Shown here: piece after piece, positions 9,495-61,743 of the stretch | Position numbering within the stretch: position 1 is the stretch's first letter | How the letters are laid out: every line of letters begins with the position of its first letter | Assembly: GCA_964605645.1 (NCBI GenBank) | Contig: CAZSDJ010000003.1 | Coordinates: forward strand, 1-61,849 | Source: an uncultured Planctomycetia bacterium | GTDB taxonomy: Bacteria > Omnitrophota > Gorgyraeia > Duberdicusellales > 4484-171 | Length of the DNA: 61,849 nt | Direction: 5' to 3' | Translations under genes and position numbers: made by a program | Notes under the pieces: model-generated | Databases searched by the model: none | Seen by the model: the letters and a program-made list of their open reading frames with translations, nothing else | Told to the model about the DNA's origin: nothing

Positions 9495-10288
9495 CCCCTG
9501 AAACTAGGGACACATCCCATTTTAGCTTCCCCTGAAACTAGGAACATATCCCATTTTTAGTTATATGTTTCCTTGGGCGCCCTGGTGCCCTTGTACTTAT
9601 TGTTATATCATATTTTTCTTTTATATGAGCGATAAATTTTTTACTTCCAAAGGGTTTACCTGTAAAAACTGATCGGTTTATGTTTTTTATTTCATTCTCA
9701 TTATCTGACATACATAAAAACTTTATATATTCTTGTCTTTCTTTATCACTAGAGCAAATCGGTTTAAGCAAGCCTCCTGTTGTTTTTTTCGTGTTAATTT
9801 TGGCACTGGACCATTTATAGTTTAAGGGGCCACTGCTTATTTTTGCTCTGACAGGGTTTCTTTCTATATATCTGCATACAGTCCAAAAATAAGAATCCCT
9901 ATCTACAACTGTAGAATGAAATCGACACTCCCAGAGCCTTCCTGTTCTGTGATATTTTTTATTCACGTATTGCGTATAACACAAGCTTAACTTTTGCATC
10001 AACTTAGCCAAAGAATCATTATGGTTTGGCTCAACCAGCATATGAATATGATTATTCATCAGGCAATATGTTCTTACGCTACAACTACATTCGTTACTGT
10101 ATTTTTTTATTAAATTAAGATAGAAAAAGCGGTCTTTATCTTCAAAGAAAATTATTTGCCTATTATTGCCTCTTTGAACTATGTGGTGGGGATATCCTAC
10201 TACTATAATTCTGGGTATTCTTGGCATGAGCGTAATATATCACAACAGAGCATAATGTTCAAGAAAAATGGGATGTGTCCCTGGTTTT
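9495..10288 (-). mobile_element. RAYT-like unit 1: inverted repeat, promoter, Y1 gene, two tandem inverted repeats
   Basis: CCCCTGAAACTAGGGACACATCCCATTTT at 9495-9524 and a 34-bp-offset second copy at 9529-9558. The inverted partner AAAAATGGGATGTGTCCCTGGTTTT is at 10264-10288. Confidence 0.6.
9538..10227 (-). CDS. REP-associated tyrosine transposase-like protein (IS200/Y1_Tnp superfamily)
   Basis: 229 aa. YPHHIVQRGNNRQ, HUH motif NHIHMLV, and tyrosine helix YIERNPVRA. Confidence 0.8.
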   Translation of the reverse strand: MPRIPRIIVVGYPHHIVQRGNNRQIIFFEDKDRFFYLNLIKKYSNECSCSVRTYCLMNNHIHMLVEPNHNDSLAKLMQKLSLCYTQYVNKKYHRTGRLWECRFHSTVVDRDSYFWTVCRYIERNPVRAKISSGPLNYKWSSAKINTKKTTGGLLKPICSSDKERQEYIKFLCMSDNENEIKNINRSVFTGKPFGSKKFIAHIKEKYDITISTRAPGRPRKHITKNGICS

Positions 10289-23955: not shown

Positions 23956-25290
23956 TCATAAGTTTTTAATTTCCTGTGTAAGGCTGTTAATTACTATTTT
24001 TAATTTTTCGTCTTTCTCTAACATTTTTTTTATTTTTTTACAAGCATATAAAATATTAGTGTGATGTTTGCCTCCAAAATACCCCCCAATTTCCGGCAAA
24101 GAACTTTCCGTTAATTCCCGGGTTAAATACATCGCTACCTGCCGCGGCAGAACCAAGGTTTTGCTTCTCTTACTTTTCTTTAAATCTTCTTTTTCAACAC
24201 CATAAAAATCACTAACTTTTGCTAAAATAATTTCCGGGGTAACCCGGGCACTTATTTCGCGAACCATATCTTTTAAAATCCCTCTTGCTAAGTCAACAGT
24301 TATGGTTTTATTTTCAATTAAAGAATAAGCAATGATCCGCACTAAAGCCCCTTCGAGTTCGCGAATATTAGATGAAATATTTTCAGCAATAAAACGAACA
24401 ACTTGGGGTTCTACCTGGACCGCTTCGTTTTCCAGTTTCTTTTCTAAAATTGCAACCCGTGTTTCATAGTCCGGAGTTTGGATATCCACTACCAGCCCCC
24501 AATTAAAACGAGACACTAACCGCTCTTCTAAATCCGGGATTTCTTTCGGCGGCCGGTCTGATGAAACAACGATTTGTTTATGATGGTCGTACAATACATT
24601 AAAGGTATGGAAAAATTCTTCTTGGGAAGCCTCTTTACCCGAAAGAAACTGGATATCATCAATAAGCAGCATATCTATATCCCGGTATTTTTTCCGAAAC
24701 TTATCAGTATTGCGCTGCCGAATTGAAAGAATAAGGTCGTTAGCAAAGCTTTCGGAAGAAAGATATTTTACTTTAGTTTGCGGATCTAAAGAAAGAAGCT
24801 GATTGGAAATAGCTTGCATTAAGTGAGTCTTGCCTAACCCAACCCCACCATAAATAAAAATAGGGTTATATGATTTACCCGGCGCTTTTGCTACAGCTAA
24901 AGAGGCCGCGTGAGCCATCCGGTTTGAAGAACCGACCACAAAATTATCAAATGTAAAACGGGGATTTAAACGCAGTGATGTCTGTGGTTTGTCGCCAAAA
25001 CTTTTGTTGAAAGAACGAAAAATCTTTGTAGTTTTACTTTTCAGTAAGTTGGGATTAACCTTAAAATCAACACTGACTGGTTTCCCGGAAACTTCTTGAG
25101 AGATTTCTTGGATAGAAGACAAGTAATTGCTTTCCACCCAACTTTTAAAGAAACTATCCGGAGCTTCTAAAACAATATTGTCTTTAGTAAATTCTTTTAG
25201 CTGTAAAGGAGAAATCCAAGTATCAAAGGAAGTTTCTCCCAGGCGGGTTTTTAGTTTTTGTTTGCAAGTTTCCCAAATATCTTGTTTCAT
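23956..25290 (-). CDS. dnaA: chromosomal replication initiator DnaA
   Basis: 444 aa. Walker A [10 protein letters not shown], box VII, and the domain IV [37 protein letters not shown]. Confidence 0.95.
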   Translation of the reverse strand: [444 protein letters not shown]

Positions 25291-32305: not shown

Positions 32306-32370
32306 ATATTTCGTCCTTTGATTTTGACGTAATCACGTGAAGTAGAAAAGGGTCACACCTGTTTAATTTA

Positions 32371-32399
32371 TTGACAGATGCATTACCCAAGCATATAAT
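32371..32399 (+). promoter_or_regulatory. sigma70-type promoter of RAYT unit 2
   Basis: TTGACA (32371-32376), 17-nt spacer, TATAAT (32394-32399), 7 nt before the ATG at 32407. Confidence 0.55.
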
Positions 32400-32406
32400 A
32401 TTGAAC

Positions 32407-33069
32407 ATGTCTCGCCAGATTCGTTACATTGTCCCCAAAATCCCTCATCACGCTCTCCAGCGAGGCAATAATCGTCAGGTAATATTTTTTGATGAAAAAA
32501 ACAAAAAGTATTTCTGCGATAATCTTAAAAAATACAGCAGAGAACAAAAAGTCTCTATCGGCGCCTATTGCCTCATGACTAACCACCTGCATTTACTCAT
32601 ATACCCGGATACAGAGAAAGGTTTAATCAATTTTATGAAAGCTATCAGTCAAACTTATACTCAGTATATTAACCGGAAATATAAAAGAAGCGGTAAGTTG
32701 TGGGAGAATAGGTATAAGTTGCACTTGGTTGACCCTGATTATGAGCGGGTAGTATCCCGCTATATCGAATTAAATCCAGTCAGGGCTAATATGGTAAATA
32801 ATCCTTGCGATTATCAGTATTCAAGCGCGAGAAAAAACCTTAAAAATATATCAGATTGCATAGTAAACATAAATATAATTAAAGGAAAACATAAAGATTA
32901 TCAGGATTTCATAAAAGAAAAGATCCAAGAAAAGGAATTAAAGAAAATACGCGAGGCCTTACAACAAAACAAAGCCTTCGGCACAGAAAAGTTTATCAAA
33001 GGATTAGAGAAAAGATTCAATAAAACTTTTAAAGTAAGAAAAAGAGGCAGGCCTATAAGTGAAAAATAG
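32407..33069 (+). CDS. REP-associated tyrosine transposase-like protein (Y1_Tnp superfamily)
   Basis: Start moved to MSRQIRY, because the track start is the TTG of the -35 box. IPHHALQRGNNRQ, HUH NHLHLLI, YIELNPVRA. Confidence 0.8.
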   Translation: MSRQIRYIVPKIPHHALQRGNNRQVIFFDEKNKKYFCDNLKKYSREQKVSIGAYCLMTNHLHLLIYPDTEKGLINFMKAISQTYTQYINRKYKRSGKLWENRYKLHLVDPDYERVVSRYIELNPVRANMVNNPCDYQYSSARKNLKNISDCIVNINIIKGKHKDYQDFIKEKIQEKELKKIREALQQNKAFGTEKFIKGLEKRFNKTFKVRKRGRPISEK

Positions 33070-33071
33070 GT

Positions 33072-33224
33072 GTGACCACTTTTGCTCTTTTGCTCACTCT
33101 CTACCGGTTAATTAAACAAGGCAAACTTCCTAATTTTAAAGTTGGCGGCCAGTGGCGGGTTAAAAAAGAGCTGCTTGATTCGTGGATCAGAAAAAAGCCG
33201 GAAGAAAATAAAAAAGAGGAGTAA
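33072..33224 (+). pseudogene. truncated excisionase-type (HTH_17-like) DNA-binding gene fragment
   Basis: My translation is ...LYRLIKQGKLPNFKVGGQWRVKKELLDSWIRKKPEENKKEE, which matches the recognition helix and wing of excisionase-family HTH proteins. The first helix is missing and the fragment starts inside the right repeat of RAYT unit 2. Confidence 0.45.
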
Positions 33225-33747: not shown

Positions 33748-34047
33748 TTAGTTCTTAGCTCATTGCTTTTAATTTATAGCCTTGTTTCGACAGATGATGG
33801 ATGATCGCTTCGCTAAGACGACAGACGAAAAATATTTCATCCCTGCCTGCCGCCTGCCTATCGGCAGACAGGGCAGGCAGGCTTTCGTCCCTCGTTCGTC
33901 GGTATCTTCTTTAGCCACAAGCCAATCTGGGAGTGAGGCGGCGGAGCTGTAGCTGGAGGAGTTGTGAACGGGGTCTAAGGGGTCAGGTCTTTACACTTGA
34001 CATAATCTTGTTTATCCGCTAAAGTGTTAATAAACAAAGAGGTAAAT

Positions 34048-35004
34048 GTGGCCAGGCCATTACGAATTGAATATCAAGATGCATTTTATCATATAATCCA
34101 GCGCGGATTCGAAAAAAGAAATATTTTAAAAAAAAATCAAAATAAAACAAAGTTTCTTCAATACCTGTCTCAGAGTTACCAAAAATACCAATCAATCTGC
34201 CATAGCTATTGTTTGATGGATAATCACTACCATTTGATTATCCAAACCCCCAAAGCAAACCTTACCAAAGTAATGCATTATGTAAATGCTAGCTATGCAA
34301 TCTACTACAACAAAAGAAATAAAAGAACCGGCCCTTTATATCAAGGCAGGTATAAATCTATACTAATTGAAGCTGACCAATACTTAGATCATCTAAGCCG
34401 GTATATCCACTTAAACCCCGTACGGGCAAAAATTGTTAAAAATCCCCAAGATTATCCTTGGTCCAGTTATCAATATTTTCTTAGGAAGAAAGCGCCGGAA
34501 AAATGGCTGGAACCCCTTTTTATATTATCTAACTTTGGCAAAAAAGCCAAAGAAGCTAGCAGTGCTTACCGGGATTTTGTGCTGGAAGGCAGAGGTAGGG
34601 AAAAGGAAATACAAAGCTACATAAAAGAAAATACCCATCACGGTTTAATTTTAGGAAGCAATAACTTTTCTCAAAACATATACGATAAATATATAAAAAG
34701 AAAAAAAGATACAGAAATACCAGTAACCAGATGTTTCCAAAAAGACAACGGCCTGACTAAAGAAAGGGTAGAGAGTATTGTTAGGAACATAGTAAAAGAT
34801 GAGGCAAAAATAAGAAAGTTTACAATATACACACTAAAGCGATATACCCAAAAAACCCTCAAAGAAATTTCAGCTAGTTACAAAGGGATTGGGTATACCG
34901 GGGTCAGTATATTATGCAAGCGGCTGGAAGAAAAAAGAAAGAAAGATAAAAATACCGGCCGGGCGATTGCCAAGATAGAAAGTATGTGTAATGTGAAGAC
35001 CTGA
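34048..35004 (+). CDS. Y1/HUH transposase-like protein with C-terminal DnaA-domain-IV-like HTH
   Basis: GTG start chosen by alignment to MARPLRIEY of the 41544 paralog. FYHIIQRG, HUH NHYHLII, YIHLNPVRA. C-terminal tail YTQKTLKEISASYKGIGYTGVSILCKRLEE. Confidence 0.75.
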   Translation: MARPLRIEYQDAFYHIIQRGFEKRNILKKNQNKTKFLQYLSQSYQKYQSICHSYCLMDNHYHLIIQTPKANLTKVMHYVNASYAIYYNKRNKRTGPLYQGRYKSILIEADQYLDHLSRYIHLNPVRAKIVKNPQDYPWSSYQYFLRKKAPEKWLEPLFILSNFGKKAKEASSAYRDFVLEGRGREKEIQSYIKENTHHGLILGSNNFSQNIYDKYIKRKKDTEIPVTRCFQKDNGLTKERVESIVRNIVKDEAKIRKFTIYTLKRYTQKTLKEISASYKGIGYTGVSILCKRLEEKRKKDKNTGRAIAKIESMCNVKT

Positions 35005-35133
35005 CCCCCATAGGTGGCTTCATTATGCAAGCGGCTGGAAGAAAAAAGAAAGAAAGATAAAAATACCGGCCGGGCGATTGCCAAGATAGAAAGTATGTGT
35101 AATGTGAAGACCTGACCCCCATAGGTGGCTTCA
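34912..35133. repeat. perfect 111-bp tandem duplication (x2) covering the 3-prime end of the Y1 gene plus its right inverted repeat
   Basis: Unit 34912-35022 reads identically by eye to 35023-35133. Confidence 0.85.
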
Positions 35134-35282
35134 AATACTCCAGTGCCAAAAAACACCTTAAAAATACAAAAGACGATATAGTAAATATAGATATAATTAA
35201 AGGAAAACAAAAAGGCTATCAGGATTTCATAAATGAAAAGATAGCAGAAAAAGCCGGTAAAGATAAAATAGGTGTAGACCAC
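35134..35282 (+). pseudogene. C-terminal remnant of a unit-2-type RAYT gene with its right repeat
   Basis: Translates to YSSAKKHLKNTKDDIVNIDIIKGKQKGYQDFINEKIAEK, parallel to YSSARKNLKNISDCIVNINIIKGKHKDYQDFIKEKIQEK of 32407-33069. Ends in AAAATAGGTGTAGACCAC. Confidence 0.7.
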
Positions 35283-35363
35283 GCCGGGTTTGACGGAAAA
35301 AACTTGTATAATTCGAAAAACAGTGTATACTTACTGCAATAGACATTTAACATTTAGCGCTAT

Positions 35364-35957
35364 ATGGAGCGAAAACTTAAACCAATATATGTTCAGCAGT
35401 TTCTACTGGAAAAAGGTGTGCGGCTTTTTTCACCGTCTGACTTCCGGCGTATCTTCGCCGTATCCTTACGGGCGGCCCAAGAATTCATCAAGGACCACAG
35501 CCAGGACCTTTTCTTGAAAATAAGAAACGGTCTTTATGCTCTGCGTGCCGAGTTGCCCCAAGAAGAAGCCATAGCTAATCGGCTATATGCGCCAAGCTAC
35601 ATCTCTTTTGAGTATGCCCTGACTCGATACGGCATTATACCCGAATCCGTCTATGCCGTAACATCGGCGACAACCCGAATAACCCGTGAATTTACAGTCA
35701 ATAATAAATCTTTTACTTATTCTCACATCAAAAAACAGGCTTTTCAGGGCTATAAAACAGAGAAAAAAAACGGTACTACTCTCCTTATTGCCGAACCGGA
35801 AAAGGCCTTCGTAGATTATCTTTATTTTGTAGATCTGAAACGTAAACCCTTGAACGAGCGCCTCGATACCCGCAGAATAAAGAAAAAAACCGTCACGGAA
35901 TATATCAAGTTTTTTGGCAGGAAAAGTTTAACAAGGCTGGTTAAAGAAATTTTATGA
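35364..35957 (+). CDS. AbiEi-family type IV antitoxin / transcriptional regulator
   Basis: 197 aa. SYISFEYALTRYGIIPE and IAEPEKAFVDYLYF resemble AbiEi. 4-nt ATGA overlap with the downstream nucleotidyltransferase. Confidence 0.65.
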   Translation: MERKLKPIYVQQFLLEKGVRLFSPSDFRRIFAVSLRAAQEFIKDHSQDLFLKIRNGLYALRAELPQEEAIANRLYAPSYISFEYALTRYGIIPESVYAVTSATTRITREFTVNNKSFTYSHIKKQAFQGYKTEKKNGTTLLIAEPEKAFVDYLYFVDLKRKPLNERLDTRRIKKKTVTEYIKFFGRKSLTRLVKEIL

Positions 35958-36694
35958 TTGGAAAAAGGCAAATTCAGAAACTAGCCGGGCTTTGGCAGAC
36001 AACTCTTGATAACGTTGTGCGGGAGTATTTTCAGCAATTATTTCTTTCATGGCTTTATCAGGGAAAGGGATCCGATAAACTACTTTTTAAGGGAGGGACA
36101 GCCCTGCGGGTTATCTGGCAGAATCCGCGGTTTTCGGAGGATTTGGACTTTACCGGAGTGACTGTGTCAGTAAAAAAGATTGAAACATTGATGGAAGAGA
36201 CGCTTGCCAAAATGGAGATGGAGGGCATTCAGACCGAAATCGTTGAGTCGAAAAGCACTCCCGGCGGTTATCTTGCTATATTTCAGTTTAAAACCAACGA
36301 ATATAACAGCCGGATTCAGATCGAGGTATCTCTGCGAAACGGCAAAAAAGAAGGAGGGACAGCAGTTCTTATTCGGTCCGAGCTTGTTATGCCATATACA
36401 CTCGTTCATCTCAAAGAAGAGGTTCTTGTTTCCGAAAAAATACAGGCCTGTCTTACGCGCGGTAAGGCACGGGATTTTTACGATCTTTATTTTATTCTCC
36501 GAAGCCGTATGGCATTCAAAGACATATTTCTTAGAGATAAGCAATTAAAATCAAAAATCATTAAAGTCATTAAGGCAGGGAAATTGGATTTTAGGCGTGA
36601 GCTTAAGATGTTTCTTCCCGTCAGCCAACACATGGTTATCAAGGGTTTTCCAACGACACTTTTATCGGAAATTGAACGAAATGTGGCAGGATAA
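35954..36694 (+). CDS. AbiEii/DUF1814 nucleotidyltransferase toxin
   Basis: 246 aa. LLFKGGTALRVIW..RFSEDLDFT is the family signature. Confidence 0.75.
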   Translation: MIGKRQIQKLAGLWQTTLDNVVREYFQQLFLSWLYQGKGSDKLLFKGGTALRVIWQNPRFSEDLDFTGVTVSVKKIETLMEETLAKMEMEGIQTEIVESKSTPGGYLAIFQFKTNEYNSRIQIEVSLRNGKKEGGTAVLIRSELVMPYTLVHLKEEVLVSEKIQACLTRGKARDFYDLYFILRSRMAFKDIFLRDKQLKSKIIKVIKAGKLDFRRELKMFLPVSQHMVIKGFPTTLLSEIERNVAG

Positions 36695-36825
36695 GGTAGA
36701 GAGAAGATTGTAAATTAGGGGATACATTGGGCCACCCCGAGTTTGACGGACACTAAAAAAGAGAATTTCCCGAACCCAAGTATTGTGCCCTCCGAACCTG
36801 CCCGTTGCGTCGAGCTCTCCTGAAA

Positions 36826-36873
36826 CACAGATGATATCTGTGTCAATCTGTTGTTCATCTGTGTATATCTGTG
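36826..36873 (+). promoter_or_regulatory. phased ATCTGTG repeats (one inverted plus four direct copies at 10-11 bp spacing)
   Basis: CACAGAT at 36826-36832. ATCTGTG, ATCTGTT, ATCTGTG, ATCTGTG at 36836, 36846, 36857 and 36867. Lies 41 bp upstream of the first polysaccharide-locus gene. Confidence 0.45.
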
Positions 36874-36913
36874 ATTAACATGGGAGTGAGGCGGCGGAGC
36901 TGTCCCCTGTTGT

Positions 36914-37687
36914 ATGAAATTTTGGATTACCGAAAAGGAAGTTAATAATTGGTTTAAAGAAAAGAATGTATTTTTTATTTTGGGCATGGGAAGGTCTGGA
37001 ACAAAATTGTTAGCTGACTTATTGAATAAAGAGAAAAAAAGTGCCGTTTTTCATGAACCGGTCAATGAAGATTTTCGCGCTGTAGTTGAGGCTCATAAAT
37101 CAGAAACTTTAGCCGACAAGTATATAAAAAAATTTAGAAAAAAAAGAAGTTATAGTTTACTGAAAAATAAAGATATTAAAACTTATGGGGAGGTAAATTC
37201 TGCATTAAGATTTCACGCTAAGGCTTTGAAAAAAAATTTTCCTCAGTCAAATTTGTTACATTTGGTACGTAATGGTAAAGATGTGGTTAGGTCATTAATG
37301 AGTAGAGGCCATTACACTAAAGACGGAGTAGGCCATCACTTATTGAAACCTAACAAGGATGATCCACTTAGAAAAAAATGGGATAACTTGAACCGATTTG
37401 AAAAAATTTGTTGGTTATGGAAAGATGCCAATGAACGTATAAGCAGAGAAATTGATACATTTATAAAAATTGAAGAAATATCAAGTGACTATAATTATTT
37501 TAAAAAACATGTTTTGTCTCCAATTAATTTTAATATTTCTAAAGACGTATGGAGAAAGTCCGTTAAAAATCCTAAAAATGCGACAAAAAAATATGAGATT
37601 GAACACTGGACAAAGTGGGATATATCTCTCTTAAATTCTTTTAATAAAATTTGCGGAAAAGAAAATGAAAAATATGGGTATATGTAG
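36914..37687 (+). CDS. sulfotransferase family protein
   Basis: 257 aa. PAPS-binding loop FILGMGRSGTKLLADLL and LVRNGKDVVRS. Confidence 0.7.
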   Translation: MKFWITEKEVNNWFKEKNVFFILGMGRSGTKLLADLLNKEKKSAVFHEPVNEDFRAVVEAHKSETLADKYIKKFRKKRSYSLLKNKDIKTYGEVNSALRFHAKALKKNFPQSNLLHLVRNGKDVVRSLMSRGHYTKDGVGHHLLKPNKDDPLRKKWDNLNRFEKICWLWKDANERISREIDTFIKIEEISSDYNYFKKHVLSPINFNISKDVWRKSVKNPKNATKKYEIEHWTKWDISLLNSFNKICGKENEKYGYM

Positions 37688-37699
37688 GTAATTATTCTT

Positions 37700-38383
37700 A
37701 TGAAAAGTAAAATATTCAATCCATCATACACTGGTTTTAGAGATGATATTTTTAATTTTATTACTTATGATATCACGAGGGTTTTAGATATTGGTTGTAG
37801 TATTGGTGTGCTCGGGGAAAAAATTAAGCGGAGGTATAACTCCGAAGTTACTGGGATAGAGAAAGATGAAAAAATGGCCAAAGTTGCTAAAAAAAAGTTG
37901 AATTATTTAATAAGAGGAGACATTGAAAATATCAACCTTCATAAATATTTTTCAGAAAATTATTTTGATTGTGTGATTTTTGCAGATATACTTGAACATC
38001 TAAAAAACCCTTGGGAAGTTTTAAGAAATAGTATGGATTTTTTAAGTAATGACGGTGTTGTGATTATAAGTATACCAAATGTTAGGCATTGGAATACAAT
38101 TTTTAATTTAGTCTTTAAAGGATATTGGCCTTATAGGAGGAGGGGGATACATGACACATCTCACTTACGGTTTTTTACTTATAAAAATATAATGGAAATG
38201 CTTAAATATGCAGAGTTAGAAGTAACTACGTTAAAGAGAAAATACAGATTATTAGAAAACCCTTATCGAAAAATGAGTTTTGTAAATAGATTTTTGAAAT
38301 ATGTACCAATTCCTATTTTAAGAGAATTTTTAGTGTTTCAGTATATAATAGTTGCCCGGAAAATTAGGAGGCAGAAATTATAA
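37700..38383 (+). CDS. class I SAM-dependent methyltransferase
   Basis: 227 aa. Motif I VLDIGCSIGVLG and post-I/II CVIFADILEHL. Confidence 0.75.
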   Translation: MKSKIFNPSYTGFRDDIFNFITYDITRVLDIGCSIGVLGEKIKRRYNSEVTGIEKDEKMAKVAKKKLNYLIRGDIENINLHKYFSENYFDCVIFADILEHLKNPWEVLRNSMDFLSNDGVVIISIPNVRHWNTIFNLVFKGYWPYRRRGIHDTSHLRFFTYKNIMEMLKYAELEVTTLKRKYRLLENPYRKMSFVNRFLKYVPIPILREFLVFQYIIVARKIRRQKL

Positions 38384-38390
38384 AGGCTAA

Positions 38391-39090
38391 CAAAAAATTC
38401 TGTTAACCGGTGGAATGGAACAAGGAAAATGCGAATACAAATGCTCTGATTGCCAAGCGGTATTAGAACCTAAACCTACTCCAGAAAATAAACCGCTTGT
38501 CTCTACAAGTATTTATGCTCAAACTAAGAAAGACCAGGAAGAGATGGCTTTAATAATAGGAAAAACTTATGATATACCTACAGTAGCTTTGAGATACTTT
38601 AATGTGTACGGCCCCAGACAGAGTTTAAATAATCCCTATACTGGAGTTTGCGCAATTTTTAGTAGTAGGATAAAGAATAATAATCCTCCTCTTATCTTTG
38701 AAGATGGTAATCAGAGTAGAGATTTTGTACACGTTGAAGATATCGCAAGAGTCAATCAACTAGTGCTAGAAAAAGAAGAAGCTAACATGAAAGTTTTTAA
38801 TGTAGGAACAGGGGTGGCAAGGACTATAAAAGAAATCGCTGAATTACTAATAAACTTATATGACAAACAAGGCAAATTAGATTATAAAGTTGTAGAAAAG
38901 TTCAGAAAGGGAGACATAAGACACTGTTACTCTGATATTTCTCATCTTAAAAAGATTCTCAATTATGAACCAAAAAAAGCTTTAAACAGGGGATGAAGGA
39001 ACTGATAGACTGGGGCAAGGAACAAAACGCCATTGATAAATTTAAAAAAGCTTCAAGTGAGTTAGAAAAAAAAGTTAAAAGTGCAGAGTA
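38391..39090 (+). pseudogene. NAD-dependent sugar epimerase/dehydratase with internal deletion and 3-prime frameshift
   Basis: In frame upstream of the track ORF, QKILLTGG (the start of the Rossmann motif) joins directly to the mid-protein segment CEYKCSDC...YAQTK (catalytic YxxxK region). The usual C-terminal GMKELIDW... continues in the +1 frame after 38990 and ends in a RAYT right-end fragment. Confidence 0.7.
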
Positions 39091-39156
39091 GAGACCTGAT
39101 TCCTGATACTAGAGCGGAAATATCTTATAAAGAAAGAGAAGAAAGAATTTAAGCAA

Positions 39157-40116
39157 ATGATTTCTCCACAAATCAAAACTATAACAATACAGATACTTAA
39201 GGCTTTAAAGCTGTATGAGTTTGTGAGAAATGTAGCCAAAAACTGCCGTTTCTTTAGAGTTATTTTGAAAAGCAGATTTGCTACACTTGAATACCGTTAT
39301 ACTAACTTTCAAACAAAACCCAACAAGAAAATAGTTTGTGTTATTGTATCCTGCTGCAATTATTTGGAATACACAAAACAAGCGCTCAATTCATATTATG
39401 CTGCGCTAGATAGTGATTATAACTATATATTAATCGTCATGGATGATCATTCAACAGGTCAGACAAAATCATTTTTTTCGGAAGATTTAAAAAAGCTCAC
39501 GAATATATGTTATTTCCGTTACAGAAAAAATAGGGGTTTAACCCAAACCTGGAACGATGGTGTTTTGTTTGTGTTAAAAAAAATTAAGGCTGATTATGTA
39601 TTTCTTATTAACAATGATACTATCATACCTAAAAATACCTTTCATAAAATGCTAGCTCATCTTGAGAGTCACAAAGAAGCGGGTGCTATTGGCCCCTTGA
39701 CAAATTGCCCCGGCTTTCAACCACGTCAGGATATAAGAGAATTTTATCCAGCTTATGCAGCATCTGATTTACAACTAGATATCCAGGCAGCCGCTGATAT
39801 AATAAAAGAAAATAAACCTGTTGAGGTGGGATATATCAATGGGTTTTTCATGGGTTTTTCGAGGGAGGCTTTTGAGAAAAACGTGCATTCTTATTTTTTA
39901 TCTAAGCCTTATTATTTCAATCCCCTAAATAGAAATACGGGCAACGAAGACGAATTCTTGCTACGGCTTAAACAGGCTGGATTTAAAATTCTCATGGCAA
40001 CGGATGTGTTTGTTTTTCATTATAAGGATATTAGTCAACATAGATTTACAAAAGGAGAAATGGTGCTTTTCAGAAAAGGGAAAGATACTCTGAAAAGAAA
40101 TCTTAAAGGCGAATAA
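39157..40116 (+). CDS. family 2 glycosyltransferase
   Basis: 319 aa. GT-A fold hints (IVCVIVSCCN, VMDDHSTG, INNDT). Confidence 0.6.
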   Translation: MISPQIKTITIQILKALKLYEFVRNVAKNCRFFRVILKSRFATLEYRYTNFQTKPNKKIVCVIVSCCNYLEYTKQALNSYYAALDSDYNYILIVMDDHSTGQTKSFFSEDLKKLTNICYFRYRKNRGLTQTWNDGVLFVLKKIKADYVFLINNDTIIPKNTFHKMLAHLESHKEAGAIGPLTNCPGFQPRQDIREFYPAYAASDLQLDIQAAADIIKENKPVEVGYINGFFMGFSREAFEKNVHSYFLSKPYYFNPLNRNTGNEDEFLLRLKQAGFKILMATDVFVFHYKDISQHRFTKGEMVLFRKGKDTLKRNLKGE

Positions 40117-40152
40117 TCAAAGACCGGGTATTTTGAAGAATAGCAGAAACTA

Positions 40153-40237
40153 AGAAAAAAGATAAGAAGCTTGATAAGCTTTTAGCGAAATTAGAAAAAA
40201 AAGTTAAAAGTGCAGAGTGGAGACCTGACCCCTAAGG
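40153..40237 (+). repeat. 85-bp orphan copy of the 3-prime end and right repeat of RAYT unit 4
   Basis: Near-identical by eye to 42426-42510 (..GATAAGAAGCTTGATAAGCTTTTAGCGAAATTAGAAAAAAAAGTTAAAAGTGCAGAGTGGAGACCTGACCCCTAAGG). A shorter, more diverged copy is at 39062-39104. Confidence 0.8.
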
Positions 40238-40438
40238 GTGCAAAGACCAATATAGCTACAAAGCGATGGCGGAGAAATTAGTTAATATTTTCAAAAAATA
40301 TGAAAATTGATTTCATTTCCTAGGTTGAATAAATTAAAATTCGGGGGATACGTTTAAGTAAACTTTGATGATTTATATAGATAAAAAAAAGGTTTATCAA
40401 AAATAAAACAATTTAGGTATGGAGAGGAGGGATAAGCG

Positions 40439-41437
40439 ATGAGCCAGAAAAAAGCTCTAGTTTGCGGAGCAGGAGGTTTTATCGGAGGATTTTTGGTCAA
40501 GAGGTTAAAAAAAGAAGGATATTGGGTCCGGGGCGTTGACCTAAAGCGCCACGAATTTGAAGAATCAAAAGCCGATGATTTCATTATTGGTGACCTGCGC
40601 GGCCAGCAGGTTTGTAAGAAAATTACCCAAGATGTGCAATTTGATGAATTGTATCAGTTAGCCGCTGATATGGGAGGAGCCGGATTTGTTTTTACCGGAG
40701 ATAATGATGCAGCAATTTTACATAATTCAGCCTCAATTAACTTGAACATGTTAGAACAGGCAAAAGAAACCGGTATAAAGAAAGTATTCTATTCTTCTTC
40801 AGCCTGTATTTATCCGGAATACAATCAAATGGAACCTGATAATCCCGGTTTGCCGGAAGATTGCGCTTACCCGGCTAATCCGGATTCAGAATACGGCTGG
40901 GAGAAACTGTTCGGTGAGCGCCTATATTTGGCCTATAACCGGAATTACGGCAGGGAAGTCCATATTGCAAGGTACCACAATATCTTTGGCCCTTTGGGGA
41001 CTTGGCAGGGGGGCAGAGAGAAGGCTCCGGCTGCTTTCTGCCGCAAGATTGCCCAGGCTAAAGACGGTGCAGAGATTAAGATGTGGGGTGACGGCAAACA
41101 AACCCGTTCTTTTCTCTATATTGACGCCTGCATAGAAGCTACCTGGAGGTTGATGCACTCTGATTTTACCGGCCCGGTAAACATAGGCTCCGATGAAAAG
41201 GTCAGCATAAATGGCTTAGCTTATATGATTGCCGGTATTGCCGGTAAAAAAATCAGCATAAAACATATAGAAGGCCCTTTGGGGGTAAGAGGCAGAAGTT
41301 CAGACAACAAATTAATTAAAGAGAAGCTGGGCTGGGCTCCTGATTATCCTCTAAAGGAAGGCTTAGAAAAAACCTACCCCTGGATTGCCGAAAGCACAGA
41401 CAACAAACTGGATAAGGGGTCAGGTCTCCACTCTTGA
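40439..41437 (+). CDS. NAD-dependent epimerase/dehydratase (GDP-mannose 3,5-epimerase-like)
   Basis: 332 aa. GAGGFIGGFLVKRL and SSACIYP..YGWEK. The last ~9 codons (DKGSGLHS) are encoded by the left repeat of RAYT unit 4. Confidence 0.75.
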   Translation: MSQKKALVCGAGGFIGGFLVKRLKKEGYWVRGVDLKRHEFEESKADDFIIGDLRGQQVCKKITQDVQFDELYQLAADMGGAGFVFTGDNDAAILHNSASINLNMLEQAKETGIKKVFYSSSACIYPEYNQMEPDNPGLPEDCAYPANPDSEYGWEKLFGERLYLAYNRNYGREVHIARYHNIFGPLGTWQGGREKAPAAFCRKIAQAKDGAEIKMWGDGKQTRSFLYIDACIEATWRLMHSDFTGPVNIGSDEKVSINGLAYMIAGIAGKKISIKHIEGPLGVRGRSSDNKLIKEKLGWAPDYPLKEGLEKTYPWIAESTDNKLDKGSGLHS

Positions 41438-42537
41438 CAAATATTATCCCCATGATATTATTGTTTTATGGCTCGTCCGTTAAGTGGATAAGGGGTCAGG
41501 TCTCCACTCTTGACAAATATTATCCCCATGATATTATTGTTTTATGGCTCGTCCGTTAAGAATAGAATATGAAAATGCTTTCTACCATGTAATCCAAAGG
41601 GGAACAGAAAGAAAAAATATCTTCTTACAAGATGCAGATAAAGATAGGTTTCTTTCTTATCTAGGCCAGGCATATCTTGGATATAAAGCGTTTATTCATA
41701 GCTATGTGATGATGGATAATCATTATCATTTAATTTTACAAACTCCCAAGGCTAATCTCAGTAAAATAATGCATTATCTTAATACCAGTTATGCCATATA
41801 CTTCAATAGCAAAAGAAAACGGGTAGGCCCTTTATATCAAGGCAGATATAAGGCCATACTAATCCAACAAGATGAGTATCTACATCATCTTTCCCGCTAT
41901 ATTCATCTGAATCCGGTTAGAGTAAAAAAAGTAAGGGATCCTATAAAATACCCCTGGAGTAGCTATAAATATTTTGTTTCAAAAGCATCACCGCCTCTTT
42001 GGCTGCAAACAGCATTTATTCTTTCTATGTTTGGTAAAACAGTTGTAAAGGCTAAAAAGCTTTATAAAGAATTCGTTTTGGGCGCAATCGGCAAGGAAAA
42101 AGATATCATTTCAAAAAACACAATAAAAGGATTTATTCTCGGCAACAGTGACTTTGCTGATAAGATAATAAAGAAATTTGTTATGAGCAAACAAGATCCA
42201 GAAATTCCCACTATAGATAAACTAAAGCGGGAAAAACAACTTCCTTTGGAGAAAATTAAAACACTTGTAGAAAAAAATACAGCAGATAACAGGAGGCTGA
42301 AAAGGAGAATTATCTTCTACCTGGCCCGTAAATATACCCAACAAACCTTAAAAGATATAGCTGTTTTTTGTGGTAAAATAAAAGATACAGGAGTAAGTCA
42401 GGCATTTCGAAGAGTAGAAGAGGCCAGAAAAAAAGATAAAAAGCTTGATAAGCTTTTAGCGAAACTAGAAAAAAAAGTTAAAAGTGCAGAGTGGAGACCT
42501 GACCCCTAAAGGCAGAGTGGAGACCTGACCCCTAAAG
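41409..42537 (+). mobile_element. RAYT-like unit 4 (DnaA_C-like subclass) with duplicated left and right ends
   Basis: A 76-bp tandem duplication (41409-41484, 41485-41560) contains GGGGTCAGGTCTCCACTCT, TTGACA, a -10 element and the first 6 codons. The right end GCAGAGTGGAGACCTGACCCCTAAAG is duplicated at 42486-42511 and 42512-42537. Confidence 0.65.
41544..42509 (+). CDS. Y1/HUH transposase-like protein with C-terminal DnaA-domain-IV-like HTH
   Basis: 321 aa. MARPLRIEYENAFYHVIQRG, HUH NHYHLIL, YIHLNPVRV. C-terminal tail YTQQTLKDIAVFCGKIKDTGVSQAFRRVEE. Confidence 0.78.
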   Translation: MARPLRIEYENAFYHVIQRGTERKNIFLQDADKDRFLSYLGQAYLGYKAFIHSYVMMDNHYHLILQTPKANLSKIMHYLNTSYAIYFNSKRKRVGPLYQGRYKAILIQQDEYLHHLSRYIHLNPVRVKKVRDPIKYPWSSYKYFVSKASPPLWLQTAFILSMFGKTVVKAKKLYKEFVLGAIGKEKDIISKNTIKGFILGNSDFADKIIKKFVMSKQDPEIPTIDKLKREKQLPLEKIKTLVEKNTADNRRLKRRIIFYLARKYTQQTLKDIAVFCGKIKDTGVSQAFRRVEEARKKDKKLDKLLAKLEKKVKSAEWRPDP

Positions 42538-60935: not shown

Positions 60936-60942
60936 GAGGGGT

Positions 60943-61699
60943 AAAAGGGGACAGCGCCCTTTTATATTGCATAAATATCCAACTTTTGTTATTATGTTTC
61001 TATGCCGCGTAGAGCACGAATAGCAGCAATCGATTATCCCCATCACATTACCCAGAGAGGCAATTTCCAGCAGAATATTTTCAAGAATGATATAGATAGA
61101 AAAAACTACCTCGCCTGGATAGGGGAGTATAGCTATAAATACGGCCTCACCATGCTATGTTATTGTTTAATGCCGAATCATGTGCACTTTATTGCGATTC
61201 CTCATAAAGAAGATTCGCTTGCCAGAACCTTCAATACGGCACACATGCGTTATTCTCAGTATATGAATAAAAAAATGCAAAGAAATGGCCATCTTTGGCA
61301 GGGACGATTTTTTTCATGCGTATTAGATGAAACACACTTAACGATGGCTGCTCGTTATGTCGAACGGAATCCTGTACGGGCAAAATTAGTGAATAAGCCG
61401 TGCCAATGGCAATGGTCAAGCGCTCGGGAACATACAAACAAGAGAAAACCGTTAATTCCCCTCGGAGGCCTTTTTAGTTTTATCGAAATAAACTCTGCTG
61501 AATGGGAAGAGTATATTGAAACCAAGGAAGAAAGCGAAACTATAAATACTATAAAAAAACACACGTTTGTTGGAAGACCTTTAGGAAATGATCATTTTAT
61601 AGAAAAGTTAAGCAAAAAAATAGGACGAAAGATACCTATGCTTACGAGGGGTAGGCCCAAGAATAAGACGAATAAATAAAAAGGGCGCTGTCCCCTTTT
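60943..61699 (+). mobile_element. RAYT-like unit 5: inverted repeat, promoter, Y1 gene, inverted repeat
   Basis: AAAAGGGGACAGCGCCCTTTT (60943-60964) and the inverted AAAAGGGCGCTGTCCCCTTTT (61678-61699). TTGCAT-17-TATTAT lies before the ATG. Confidence 0.6.
61002..61679 (+). CDS. REP-associated tyrosine transposase-like protein (Y1_Tnp superfamily)
   Basis: 225 aa. YPHHITQRGNFQQ, HUH NHVHFIA, YVERNPVRA. Confidence 0.8.
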   Translation: MPRRARIAAIDYPHHITQRGNFQQNIFKNDIDRKNYLAWIGEYSYKYGLTMLCYCLMPNHVHFIAIPHKEDSLARTFNTAHMRYSQYMNKKMQRNGHLWQGRFFSCVLDETHLTMAARYVERNPVRAKLVNKPCQWQWSSAREHTNKRKPLIPLGGLFSFIEINSAEWEEYIETKEESETINTIKKHTFVGRPLGNDHFIEKLSKKIGRKIPMLTRGRPKNKTNK

Positions 61700-61743
61700 A
61701 TTTATATTCACAAAACGCTTATGATTTTAAAAGTGAAAACGAT

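What the first reader, a model, noticed from the sequence alone, without database searches (positions are those of the whole stretch)
33979..42537. Y1/HUH nuclease fused to a DnaA-domain-IV-like helix-turn-helix, two paralogs
The 34048 and 41544 proteins are about 100 aa longer than the other three. Their tails (RKFTIYTLKRYTQKTLKEISASYKGIGYTGVSILCKRLEEKRKKDKN and RRIIFYLARKYTQQTLKDIAVFCGKIKDTGVSQAFRRVEEARKKDKKL) align by eye with the DNA-binding domain IV of the DnaA encoded in this same window ([50 protein letters not shown]). An ssDNA-cleaving HUH enzyme coupled to a duplex DnaA-box-type reader has no characterised function that I know of. It could tether the enzyme to its own inverted repeats or to origin-like DNA. 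Both copies lie 9-17 kb from the dnaA/oriC region.
Basis: inference. Interest (0 to 1): 0.7.

Follow-up and report, generated by a model that had tools for sequence, protein, structure and literature searches.

The report
Known transposase with DnaA-like DNA-binding tail
Two small mobile-element genes in this window encode a single-strand DNA-cutting transposase that really does carry a diverged copy of the DNA-binding domain of the replication initiator DnaA, but this fusion is widespread and was described in 2013 and 2018, so these are new members of a known but biochemically untested family.

Summary
The proteins at 34048-35004 (318 aa) and 41544-42509 (321 aa) have an N-terminal Y1/HUH core. 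Their last ~90 residues are homologous to the whole of DnaA domain IV, not just a generic helix-turn-helix. Support comes from Pfam, NCBIfam, BLASTP against the window's own DnaA, a family profile against PDB DnaA structures (E 1.7e-8), a confident AlphaFold model (TM 0.78 to the M. tuberculosis DnaA DNA-binding domain), and a tail-only search of 1.84 billion proteins that reaches genuine DnaA.

The novelty claim does not hold. Each gene sits in a ~1 kb unit bounded by 20-26 bp terminal inverted repeats that start GGGGTCAG. That matches the GGGGWSAS signature of TIRYT/"TIRtron" elements (Di Nocera 2013). Quentin et al. 2018 already described the Bac_DnaA_C-like C-terminus in TnpAREP subclass 2.1.2.

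Thousands of homologs exist across many phyla. One gammaproteobacterial chromosome holds at least four 98-99% identical copies with sharp boundaries at the repeats.

The tail has lost DnaA's basic loop (Arg399) and most base-contact residues. The repeats hold no DnaA box. Tail-less paralogs carry the same repeat tips. Nearness to dnaA is not a family trait. What the tail does is untested; binding the element's own duplex ends is my best guess.

The parts
33979..34004 (+). Left terminal inverted repeat of element 1 (tip GGGGTCAGGTCT)
   Evidence: 26 nt, 85% complementary to 34983-35008 (I1). The tip matches the TIRYT consensus GGGGWSAS (PMC3733652).
33997..34025 (+). Promoter-like site whose -35 TTGACA lies at the inner edge of the left repeat
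   Evidence: TTGACA-17-TAAAGT, 10/12 matches. This is a consensus match only.
34048..35004 (+). Long Y1/HUH gene 1 (318 aa). Y1 core is about residues 1-140 (34048-34467). The DnaA-domain-IV-like tail is about residues 232-318 (34741-35001).
   Evidence: Pfam Y1_Tnp E 6.9e-12; Bac_DnaA_C E 0.053. BLASTP to window DnaA E 3e-4. 51% identical to gene 2. HUH (NHYH) and Tyr (SRYIHLNP) motifs are intact.
34983..35008 (-). Right terminal inverted repeat of element 1, overlapping the stop codon
35022..35132 (+). Exact 111-nt tandem duplicate of the 3' end of gene 1 plus right repeat (second repeat copy 35094-35119) plus 13 nt of flank
   Evidence: D3, 100% identity
39063..39103 (+). Degenerate right-end fragment of an element-2-type unit (last coding nucleotides plus repeat)
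   Evidence: D5
40127..40233 (+). Right-end fragment of an element-2-type unit (about 90 nt of 3' coding sequence plus a perfect 20-nt repeat)
   Evidence: 112 nt, 89% identical to 42401-42512 (D4)
41415..41434 (+). Extra copy of the left repeat of element 2, part of a 76-nt tandem duplication (41406-41481 / 41482-41557). It also supplies the last codons and stop of the epimerase gene 40439-41437.
   Evidence: D7, 99% identity
41491..41510 (+). Left terminal inverted repeat of element 2 (AGGGGTCAGGTCTCCACTCT)
   Evidence: 20 nt, 100% complementary to 42488-42507 (I5)
41510..41537 (+). Promoter-like site abutting the left repeat
   Evidence: TTGACA-16-TG-TATTAT, 11/12 matches. This is a consensus match only.
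41544..42509 (+). Long Y1/HUH gene 2 (321 aa). Y1 core is about residues 1-140 (41544-41963). A conserved middle region runs to about residue 230. The DnaA-domain-IV-like tail is about residues 232-315 (42237-42488).
   Evidence: Pfam Y1_Tnp E 2.9e-13; Bac_DnaA_C E 2.5e-5. TIGR00362 E 3.9e-8. AF2 pLDDT 89.3. Foldseek 4ER8 E 4e-7 and 3PVP TM 0.78. BLASTP to window DnaA E 2e-6.
42488..42507 (-). Right terminal inverted repeat of element 2, encoding the last residues (SAEWRPDP) and overlapping the stop codon
42514..42533 (-). Second copy of the right repeat (26-nt tandem duplication 42486-42511 / 42512-42537)
   Evidence: D2
23956..25290 (-). Comparator, not part of the elements: the window's genuine dnaA (domain IV is about residues 353-444)
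   Evidence: Pfam DnaA_N, Bac_DnaA and Bac_DnaA_C (98 bits)

Best explanation
The two genes are the transposase genes of two diverged copies (51% protein identity) of a TIRYT / 'TIRtron' element. This corresponds to TnpAREP subclass 2.1.2, equated with RAYT Group 1 in a 2022 preprint. Each element is a ~1 kb unit bounded by 20-26 bp terminal inverted repeats. The outer 12 nt (GGGGTCAGGTCT) are conserved across phyla. A promoter-like site sits at the inner edge of the left repeat.

Shown here:
- The N-terminal domain is a RAYT-like Y1/HUH single-strand nuclease with intact HUH and Tyr motifs.
- The last ~90 residues are a true but diverged DnaA domain IV.
- The tail has lost the Arg399 basic loop and most DnaA-box contact residues. 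It has its own conserved recognition-helix signature, (Y/D)-(T/A/S)-G-V-S-Q.
- Relatives behave as discrete mobile units in at least one genome.

Inferred, about 45% likely: the tail no longer reads DnaA boxes. Instead it is an accessory duplex-DNA binding module that holds the enzyme on its own ends. The ends could be double-stranded, or a panhandle formed when the two repeats of one single strand pair. This would position the HUH/Tyr site to cut at the conserved tip. Because the -35 box abuts the repeat, the same binding would also throttle the element's own promoter.
For: Identity of the two domains.

Repeats around both genes.

Same gene-plus-repeat layout in more than 25 loci. These come from Omnitrophota, Planctomycetia, Nitrospirales, Clostridia, Chrysiogenales, Aminicenantes, Lentisphaerae, Pseudoalteromonas, Legionella and other gammaproteobacteria. 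Positions 1-7 are nearly invariant and positions 8-12 are strongly conserved.

Mobility: at least four copies in chromosome OZ255836.1 are 98-99% identical. Similarity starts and stops at the repeats, and there is no target duplication. Homologs on 26 plasmid records are annotated 'transposase'.

Loss of DnaA-box reading: the basic loop is deleted; P423 becomes K/N, D433 K/H/G, H434 Y/D, H439 Q; R407, V437 and K/R443 are kept; L438 is Ser in 38/42 members (residue roles from PMC5742627).

Promoter-like sites abut the repeat.

Literature: PMC6006769, PMC3733652, PMC5581495, bioRxiv 10.1101/2020.03.09.984088.
Against: No binding or cleavage experiment exists for any member.

The three tail-less Y1 paralogs in this window are also flanked by 19-23 bp inverted repeats with GGGGWSAS-like tips, and so are about 25 metagenomic relatives of one of them. 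The tail is therefore not needed for having or recognising such ends.

The inner repeat sequence looks lineage-specific rather than tail-specific. Long-form L036 GGGGTCAGGCTAGTT resembles short-form L157 GGGGACAGGCTACTT.

Assignment to subclass 2.1.2 rests on shared features, not on a phylogeny with the published reference sequences.

The NCBIfam REP_Tyr_transpos scores (77.4 and 69.7) fall just below the 80-bit cut-off.
Confidence: 0.5

Rival explanations
1. The DnaA-like tail targets the enzyme to DnaA boxes, oriC or the replication apparatus, coupling cutting or insertion to replication. 2018.
For: The domain is homologous to DnaA domain IV. Both genes, and three more Y1 genes, lie within 36 kb of dnaA in this window. 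One close relative (P0059) lies 6-10 kb from gidA and a ParA-like gene. Quentin et al. raise the idea (PMC6006769).
Against: The basic loop with Arg399, which reads TTA, is deleted. The TnCACA-reading helix has changed at H434 and H439, and P423 and D433 are also replaced.

No DnaA gene was found in 517 kb of flanks of 85 related loci, although most flanks were only 0.6-3 kb. The P0096 and P0070 contexts show no origin markers within 10 kb either side.

The tail-less paralogs are equally origin-proximal here.

Copies in OZ255836.1 are spread over about 1 Mb.
Confidence: 0.1
2. The tail is mainly a transcriptional autoregulator. It would bind an operator in or near the left end and repress the transposase promoter, and would play no part in the DNA chemistry.
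For: Strong promoter-like sites have their -35 box at repeat positions 19-24 in both elements. TTGAC(A) sits in the same place in many relatives. Tail-less relatives manage with the same kind of ends.
Against: No conserved operator-like motif was found between the repeat and the start codon across loci. The TTATCC motif seen in both window copies is absent from most relatives. This reading overlaps with the best explanation and cannot be separated from it by sequence alone.
Confidence: 0.15
3. These are domesticated, no longer mobile genes kept for a host function, as argued for classical REP-associated RAYTs. The repeats would be substrates maintained in the chromosome rather than transposon ends.
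For: The two window copies are only 51% identical, so they are not recent duplicates. Bertels et al. 2017 find most RAYT groups single-copy and vertically inherited (PMC5581495). Solo repeat fragments sit next to other genes.
Against: Near-identical multi-copy units with sharp boundaries exist in OZ255836.1. Homologs occur on plasmids. Group 1 has the highest duplication rate of the true RAYT groups and is the only one of them found on plasmids. Exact tandem duplications of the ends here (100% and 99% identity) point to recent activity.
Confidence: 0.15
4. The resemblance to DnaA is only that of a generic helix-turn-helix, or is due to chance.
For: Pfam Bac_DnaA_C scores are below the gathering threshold (24.6 and 14 bits against 31.5).
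Against: The family profile finds only DnaA among 177,635 PDB sequences for this region, with E down to 1.7e-8 over the full ~90-residue domain. Structural TM is 0.78. The tail alone finds genuine DnaA among 1.84e9 proteins.
Confidence: 0.02

Closest known systems
TIRYT / TIRtron elements (Di Nocera, De Gregorio & Rocco 2013, BMC Genomics 14:522, PMC3733652)
   Same: A RAYT-like Y1 gene flanked at a short, fixed distance by terminal inverted repeats rather than REP hairpins. The repeats share the motif GGGGWSAS (here GGGGTCAG). Repeats can overlap the 5' or 3' end of the gene and occur as dimers or clusters.
   Different: The hosts here are Omnitrophota-type, which were not in that survey. No dispersed family of solo repeats is visible in this 62-kb window beyond the immediate neighbourhood.
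TnpAREP subclass 2.1.2 (Quentin et al. 2018, BMC Genomics 19:475, PMC6006769); equated with RAYT Group 1 of Bertels et al. 2017 in bioRxiv 10.1101/2020.03.09.984088
   Same: A long Y1 protein with a C-terminal extension similar to Pfam Bac_DnaA_C. No REP sequences nearby. The flanking-repeat consensus does not resemble a DnaA box.
   Different: In the window proteins and their Omnitrophota relatives, the ~13-residue DnaA basic loop is deleted. Other clades of the family keep a basic stretch there. Placement in the published tree was not tested.
E. coli TnpAREP / RAYT (PDB 4ER8)
   Same: Best structural match of the N-terminal domain (Foldseek E 4e-7, TM 0.76). HUH and catalytic Tyr motifs are shared.
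   Different: The E. coli protein is 165 aa with no DNA-binding tail. It recognises GTAG-tagged REP hairpins in single-stranded DNA, not long terminal inverted repeats.
IS200/IS605 TnpA (IS608, ISDra2)
   Same: Same Y1/HUH fold (Foldseek E 3e-5 to 4e-4). Insertion leaves no target-site duplication.
   Different: NCBIfam transpos_IS200 scores 18-19 bits against a cut-off of 55. The ends here are inverted repeats, not asymmetric subterminal hairpins. There is no tnpB. The protein is twice as long.
DnaA domain IV (PDB 1J1V, 3PVP, 2HCB)
   Same: Homologous over the whole domain. R407, V437 and K/R443 equivalents are conserved.
   Different: The Arg399 loop is missing. P423, D433, H434 and H439 are replaced. 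Family-specific Ser replaces L438. The domain is fused to a nuclease rather than to an AAA+ ATPase.

Membership tests
Y1/HUH transposase superfamily (Pfam PF01797 Y1_Tnp) | Profile match above the gathering score | tested here: met
   46 and 50.5 bits against a cut-off of 23
Y1/HUH transposase superfamily (Pfam PF01797 Y1_Tnp) | HUH motif and a single catalytic Tyr, both conserved | tested here: met
   H60, H62 and Y119 are invariant in 42 family members, including both window proteins
REP-associated tyrosine transposase (NCBIfam NF047646, equivalog) | Score at or above the curated cut-off of 80 bits | tested here: not met
   77.4 and 69.7 bits. It is the best-scoring family, but below the equivalog threshold.
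REP-associated tyrosine transposase (RAYT sensu stricto) | Gene flanked by REP palindromes that are dispersed in many copies | tested here: not met
   The flanks are inverted repeats of each other. The 12-nt tip occurs only 8 times (<=1 mismatch), and the 19-mer 9 times (<=3 mismatches), all within 33.9-42.6 kb. Only one 62-kb contig was available.
TIRYT / TIRtron (Di Nocera 2013) | RAYT-like gene bracketed by terminal inverted repeats | tested here: met
   26 nt at 85% and 20 nt at 100% complementarity
TIRYT / TIRtron (Di Nocera 2013) | Repeat carries the GGGGWSAS motif | tested here: met
   GGGGTCAG at every arm. The same tip occurs in more than 20 related loci.
TnpAREP subclass 2.1.2 (Quentin 2018) | C-terminal extension similar to Bac_DnaA_C (or HTH_23/28) | tested here: met
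TnpAREP subclass 2.1.2 (Quentin 2018) | Placement within the 2.1.2 clade of the published tree | not tested
DnaA domain IV (Pfam PF08299 Bac_DnaA_C) | Profile match above the gathering score of 31.5 bits | tested here: not met
   24.6 and 14 bits. Homology is nevertheless supported.
DnaA domain IV (functional DnaA-box reader) | Arg399 basic loop and the base-contacting residues of helix 434-451 are conserved | tested here: not met
   The loop is deleted. H434 becomes D or Y, H439 becomes Q or I, and P423 becomes K. T435 is kept (residue roles from PMC5742627).
DnaA domain IV (functional DnaA-box reader) | DnaA boxes present in the presumed target (the element's repeats) | tested here: not met
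   The best match to TTWTNCACA in 40 repeat arms averages 2.55 mismatches, against 2.82 for random 26-mers. None has 1 mismatch or fewer.
IS200/IS605 | NCBIfam transpos_IS200 at or above 55 bits; asymmetric subterminal hairpins | tested here: not met
   17.8 and 18.9 bits. The ends are inverted repeats.
Autonomous insertion sequence (general) | Several near-identical copies with sharp common boundaries | tested here: inconclusive
   Met for relatives in OZ255836.1. In this window the two copies are only 51% identical as proteins, and the rest of the genome is not available.

The most novel reading that the evidence does not exclude
The DnaA-derived tail has been re-tuned to read a new duplex site in the element's own inverted repeats. 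That would let an enzyme built for single-stranded hairpins work on double-stranded or panhandle ends. On this reading, the tandem re-iterations of ends plus a few flanking bases, seen here and in unrelated phyla, are footprints of a replicative, rolling-circle-like processing of those ends. This would be a mechanistic bridge between ssDNA HUH transposition and classical inverted-repeat transposition, and no member of it has been studied biochemically.
Probability: 0.15. Interest if true: 0.55.

Novelty: new member of a known kind. Interest (0 to 1): 0.25.

Why it matters
The work confirms with independent sequence, profile and structure evidence that a very large, cross-phylum group of Y1/HUH transposase-like genes carries a captured copy of the DnaA DNA-binding domain. 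More than 7,000 database clusters matched. It also adds three details:
- Loss of the Arg399 loop in the Omnitrophota-type clade.
- A family-specific recognition-helix signature.
- The same repeat tip in tail-less paralogs.

These details narrow what the tail can be doing. No member has been tested in vitro, so the family is a reasonable target for anyone studying how HUH enzymes choose their DNA. As a discovery it is not new, and the link to the nearby origin looks coincidental.

Tried and rejected
1. DnaA box inside the repeats. By eye, GTCT(C/T)CACA looked like the TnCACA half of a DnaA box. A scan of 40 repeat arms against TTWTNCACA gave no enrichment over random 26-mers from the same loci. 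Rejected.

2. DnaA-box-like TTATCCCCA / TTATCCGCT in the promoter spacer of both window copies. Most relatives lack it. About 2 of 28 left ends have a match with 1 mismatch or fewer, which is what chance predicts from the control. Rejected as a conserved operator.

3. The idea that positions 8-12 of the repeat (RRTCT) are specific to tail-bearing forms. Tail-less relatives do differ there. However, long-form L036 and short-form L157 share GGCTA-type inner sequence. Left as unproven.

4. Origin proximity as a family trait. Not supported.

5. REP-type hairpins in the long-form repeats. The left ends can pair GTCAGG with CTTGAC, but the right ends of element 2 cannot. Not a conserved feature.

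6. Tail-only search for other architectures. Only 92 hits were found, mostly fragments of the same family, plus DnaA and arrays of DnaA domain IV. This had little power as a survey.

Full report
**What is there**

The window has five ORFs with a Y1/HUH (Pfam Y1_Tnp) core. Two are long: 34048-35004 (318 aa, "W1") and 41544-42509 (321 aa, "W2"). Three are short: 9538-10227 on the minus strand, 32371-33069 and 61002-61679, at 229, 232 and 225 aa. Homology fixes the start of W1 at GTG 34048, because every relative begins M-[AS]-R-P-L-R-I-E-Y. W1 and W2 share 51% identity. Both keep the residues that are invariant across 42 family members, including the HUH histidines (H60, H62) and the tyrosine of SRYIHLNP (Y119). 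The window's genuine dnaA is at 23956-25290 on the minus strand, next to dnaN and facing yidC.

**Is the tail a DnaA domain IV?**

Yes. Six independent lines agree.

1. Pfam Bac_DnaA_C is the only C-terminal family that both tails match: E 2.5e-5 for W2 and 0.053 for W1. Both scores are below the gathering threshold. NCBIfam TIGR00362 (DnaA) matches the C-terminus at E 3.9e-8 and 1.1e-3.
2. BLASTP against the window's own DnaA reproduces the by-eye register. W2 residues 252-314 align to DnaA 381-443 (E 2e-6). W1 256-301 aligns to DnaA 383-428 (E 3e-4). A phmmer search of W2 against all window ORFs also picks out DnaA.
3. A profile of 42 family members searched against all PDB sequences finds only DnaA for this region. 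Hits are 2HCB/1L8Q at 1.7e-8, 8BTG at 5e-7, E. coli domain IV 1J1V at 7.4e-7 and M. tuberculosis 3PVP at 4e-5. The alignment spans residues 2-92 of the 94-residue 1J1V chain, so it covers the whole domain and not only the helix-turn-helix.
4. An AlphaFold2 model built from 40 sequences is confident, with mean pLDDT 89.3. The tail forms five helices: 235-245, 250-264, 269-276, 281-297 and 299-315.
5. Foldseek puts E. coli TnpAREP (4ER8) first for the N-terminal domain (E 4e-7, TM 0.76). It finds the M. tuberculosis DnaA DNA-binding domain with TM 0.78 and rmsd 3.0 over 97 columns.
6. The 91-residue tail alone, searched against 1.84 billion representative proteins, reaches proteins that Pfam confirms as full DnaA (P0166, P0178) at library-wide E 2.5e-5 and 9e-5.

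**What the genes sit in**

Each long gene is bracketed by inverted repeats.
- W1: 33979-34004 and 34983-35008 (26 nt, 85% complementary).
- W2: 41491-41510 and 42488-42507 (20 nt, 100% complementary).

The outer tip is GGGGTCAGGTCT. The right repeat overlaps the stop codon. A promoter-like site has its -35 TTGACA at repeat positions 19-24.

The same layout appears in more than 25 loci from a scan of one genome per species. Hosts include Omnitrophota, Planctomycetia, Nitrospirales, Clostridia, Chrysiogenales, Aminicenantes, Lentisphaerae, Legionella, Pseudoalteromonas and many other gammaproteobacteria. In 44 repeat arms, positions 1-7 (GGGGTCA) are nearly invariant and positions 8-12 (R-G-T-C-T) are strongly conserved. 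Further in, the sequence is lineage-specific.

In the complete gammaproteobacterial chromosome OZ255836.1, at least four copies are 98-99% identical. Their similarity begins and ends at the repeats, and no target-site duplication is seen. So at least some members are discrete mobile units. Twenty-six plasmid records carry homologs annotated simply as 'transposase'.

**Already described**

Di Nocera et al. 2013 (PMC3733652) named RAYT-like genes flanked by terminal inverted repeats 'TIRYT' and their units 'TIRtrons'. They noted the shared repeat motif GGGGWSAS. The repeats here, GGGGTCAG, fit it exactly.

Quentin et al. 2018 (PMC6006769) made four relevant points:
- They defined TnpAREP subclass 2.1, the second largest subclass.
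- They reported that subgroup 2.1.2 carries a C-terminal region similar to Pfam Bac_DnaA_C.
- They equated subclass 2.1 with the TIRYTs and remarked that the repeat consensus does not resemble a DnaA box.
- They speculated that the domain might target the replication fork.

A 2022 preprint repeats this and equates subclass 2.1 with RAYT Group 1. Bertels et al. 2017 describe Group 1 as the largest and most widely distributed group, with the highest duplication rate among true RAYT groups (PMC5581495).

The database search here returned at least 7,450 clusters at E <= 1e-3. The best 120 are nearly all 303-332 aa (three exceptions of 249, 252 and 405 aa), and many already carry precomputed PF08299 plus PF01797. 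The fusion is therefore real but not new.

**What the tail can and cannot be doing**

In E. coli DnaA, helix 434-451 reads TnCACA in the major groove. Arg399, in the preceding basic loop, reads TTA in the minor groove. T435M and R399A abolish box binding (PMC5742627).

I aligned the family tails with E. coli and window DnaA.
- Conserved: R407 (Arg in 38/42), V437 (38/42) and K443 (Arg in 31/42).
- Replaced: P423 becomes K or N, D433 becomes K/H/G, H434 becomes Y or D, and H439 becomes mostly Q.
- Family-specific: L438 is Ser in 38/42.
- T435 is Thr in only 15/42 members, though both window proteins keep it.

In the window proteins and their Omnitrophota-type relatives, the ~13-residue basic loop is deleted outright. 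Other clades keep a basic stretch there. The repeats contain no DnaA box. The best match to TTWTNCACA in 40 arms averages 2.55 mismatches, against 2.82 for random 26-mers, and none has 1 mismatch or fewer. A TTATCC motif in the promoter spacer of both window copies is not conserved in relatives. A canonical DnaA-box reader is therefore unlikely.

**Is the tail what recognises the ends?**

Only partly testable. All three tail-less paralogs in the window are also flanked by 19-23 bp inverted repeats with GGGGWSAS-like tips: AGGGACAC, GGGTCAC and GGGGACAG. About 25 metagenomic relatives of the 61002 protein show the same, with tips such as GGGGACAC and CGGTGACAG. The conserved tip is therefore most simply read by the Y1 core, which all forms share. 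The tail is an accessory.

My preferred reading, at about 45%, is that the tail binds duplex repeat DNA inward of the tip, or the stem formed when the two repeats of one strand pair. That would add affinity and positioning, and it would incidentally occlude the abutting -35 box. The evidence is indirect:
- The general habit of transposase helix-turn-helix domains.
- Conservation of repeat positions 8-12 in tail-bearing forms.
- The promoter geometry.

Against it, the inner repeat sequence of one tail-bearing lineage (L036) resembles that of a tail-less one (L157).

**Origin proximity**

The distances are as stated, 8.8 and 16.3 kb from dnaA. They do not appear meaningful.
- The tail-less paralogs are in the same neighbourhood.
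- No DnaA was found in 517 kb of flanks around 85 related loci. This is a weak test, since most flanks were only 0.6-3 kb.
- Of three close relatives examined with 10-kb flanks, two lie among ordinary housekeeping genes. One lies 6-10 kb from gidA and a ParA-like gene.
- The window is a whole contig, so the genome-wide distribution cannot be assessed.

**Verdict**

The elements are new (Omnitrophota-type) members of the known TIRYT / TnpAREP subclass 2.1.2 kind. The modest added value lies in three points:
- Structural confirmation of the DnaA domain IV homology.
- The residue-level argument that DnaA-box specificity has been lost.
- The finding that tail-less relatives share the same repeat tip.

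Noticed in passing
window 34911-35132; 41406-41557; 42486-42537; also L002, L010, L014, L036, L042, L043, L045: The ends of the elements are tandemly re-iterated together with 5-13 nt of outside flank. In the window the units are 111 nt (100% identity), 76 nt (99%) and 26 nt. Relatives from unrelated phyla show the same habit, including short re-iterations of just flank plus GGGGTCA. This may be a footprint of how the ends are processed. Di Nocera 2013 mentions repeat 'dimers or clusters'.
   Followed up: partly
window 39063-39103 and 40127-40233: These are right-end fragments of the W2-type element: 3' coding sequence plus repeat. The second is 89% identical to W2 over 112 nt. Each lies just downstream of another gene in a polysaccharide-synthesis cluster, in the same orientation as W2.
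   Followed up: partly
window 33928-33950 and 36881-36903: An exact 23-nt direct repeat, TGGGAGTGAGGCGGCGGAGCTGT, occurs only twice in the window. It brackets a 2.95-kb segment holding element W1 and an AbiEii toxin gene (35954-36694) with its upstream partner ORF (35364-35957, no Pfam match). These may be the junctions of an inserted cassette.
   Followed up: partly
window 9501-10287 (-), 32346-33082 (+), 60942-61700 (+): The three short Y1 paralogs have no DnaA-like tail. Each is also bracketed by 19-23 bp inverted repeats with GGGGWSAS-like tips. The 60942-60963 repeat (TAAAAGGGGACAGCGCCCTTTT) is itself palindromic. The 9538 gene has a second arm copy at 9535-9558.
   Followed up: partly
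window 38415-38996 and 40439-41437: ORF 38415-38996 is only the C-terminal half of an NAD-dependent epimerase (Pfam positions 130-240 of 240). It appears to run, after a frame change, into the right-end fragment. The intact epimerase 40439-41437 takes its last codons and its stop from the duplicated left repeat of W2.
   Followed up: no
whole window: 9-mers within one mismatch of TTATCCACA number 35, against 14.9 expected. There is no tight cluster in the dnaA-yidC intergenic region; only 25315 lies there. The origin's DnaA boxes in this organism may differ from the E. coli consensus.
   Followed up: no
P0167 (552 aa) and P0170 (232 aa): These proteins consist of four and two tandem Bac_DnaA_C domains with no ATPase or nuclease part. 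So DnaA domain IV also circulates as a stand-alone repeated module.
   Followed up: no
OZ255836.1 (loci L036, L042, L045, L048, L056, L059, L066, L068, L074): All of the matched copies or fragments in this 4.29-Mb chromosome (at least nine loci) lie between 2.42 and 3.38 Mb. This is a clustering that chance placement would rarely give. The scan only finds copies that match its peptide patterns, and the origin position in that record is unknown.
   Followed up: no
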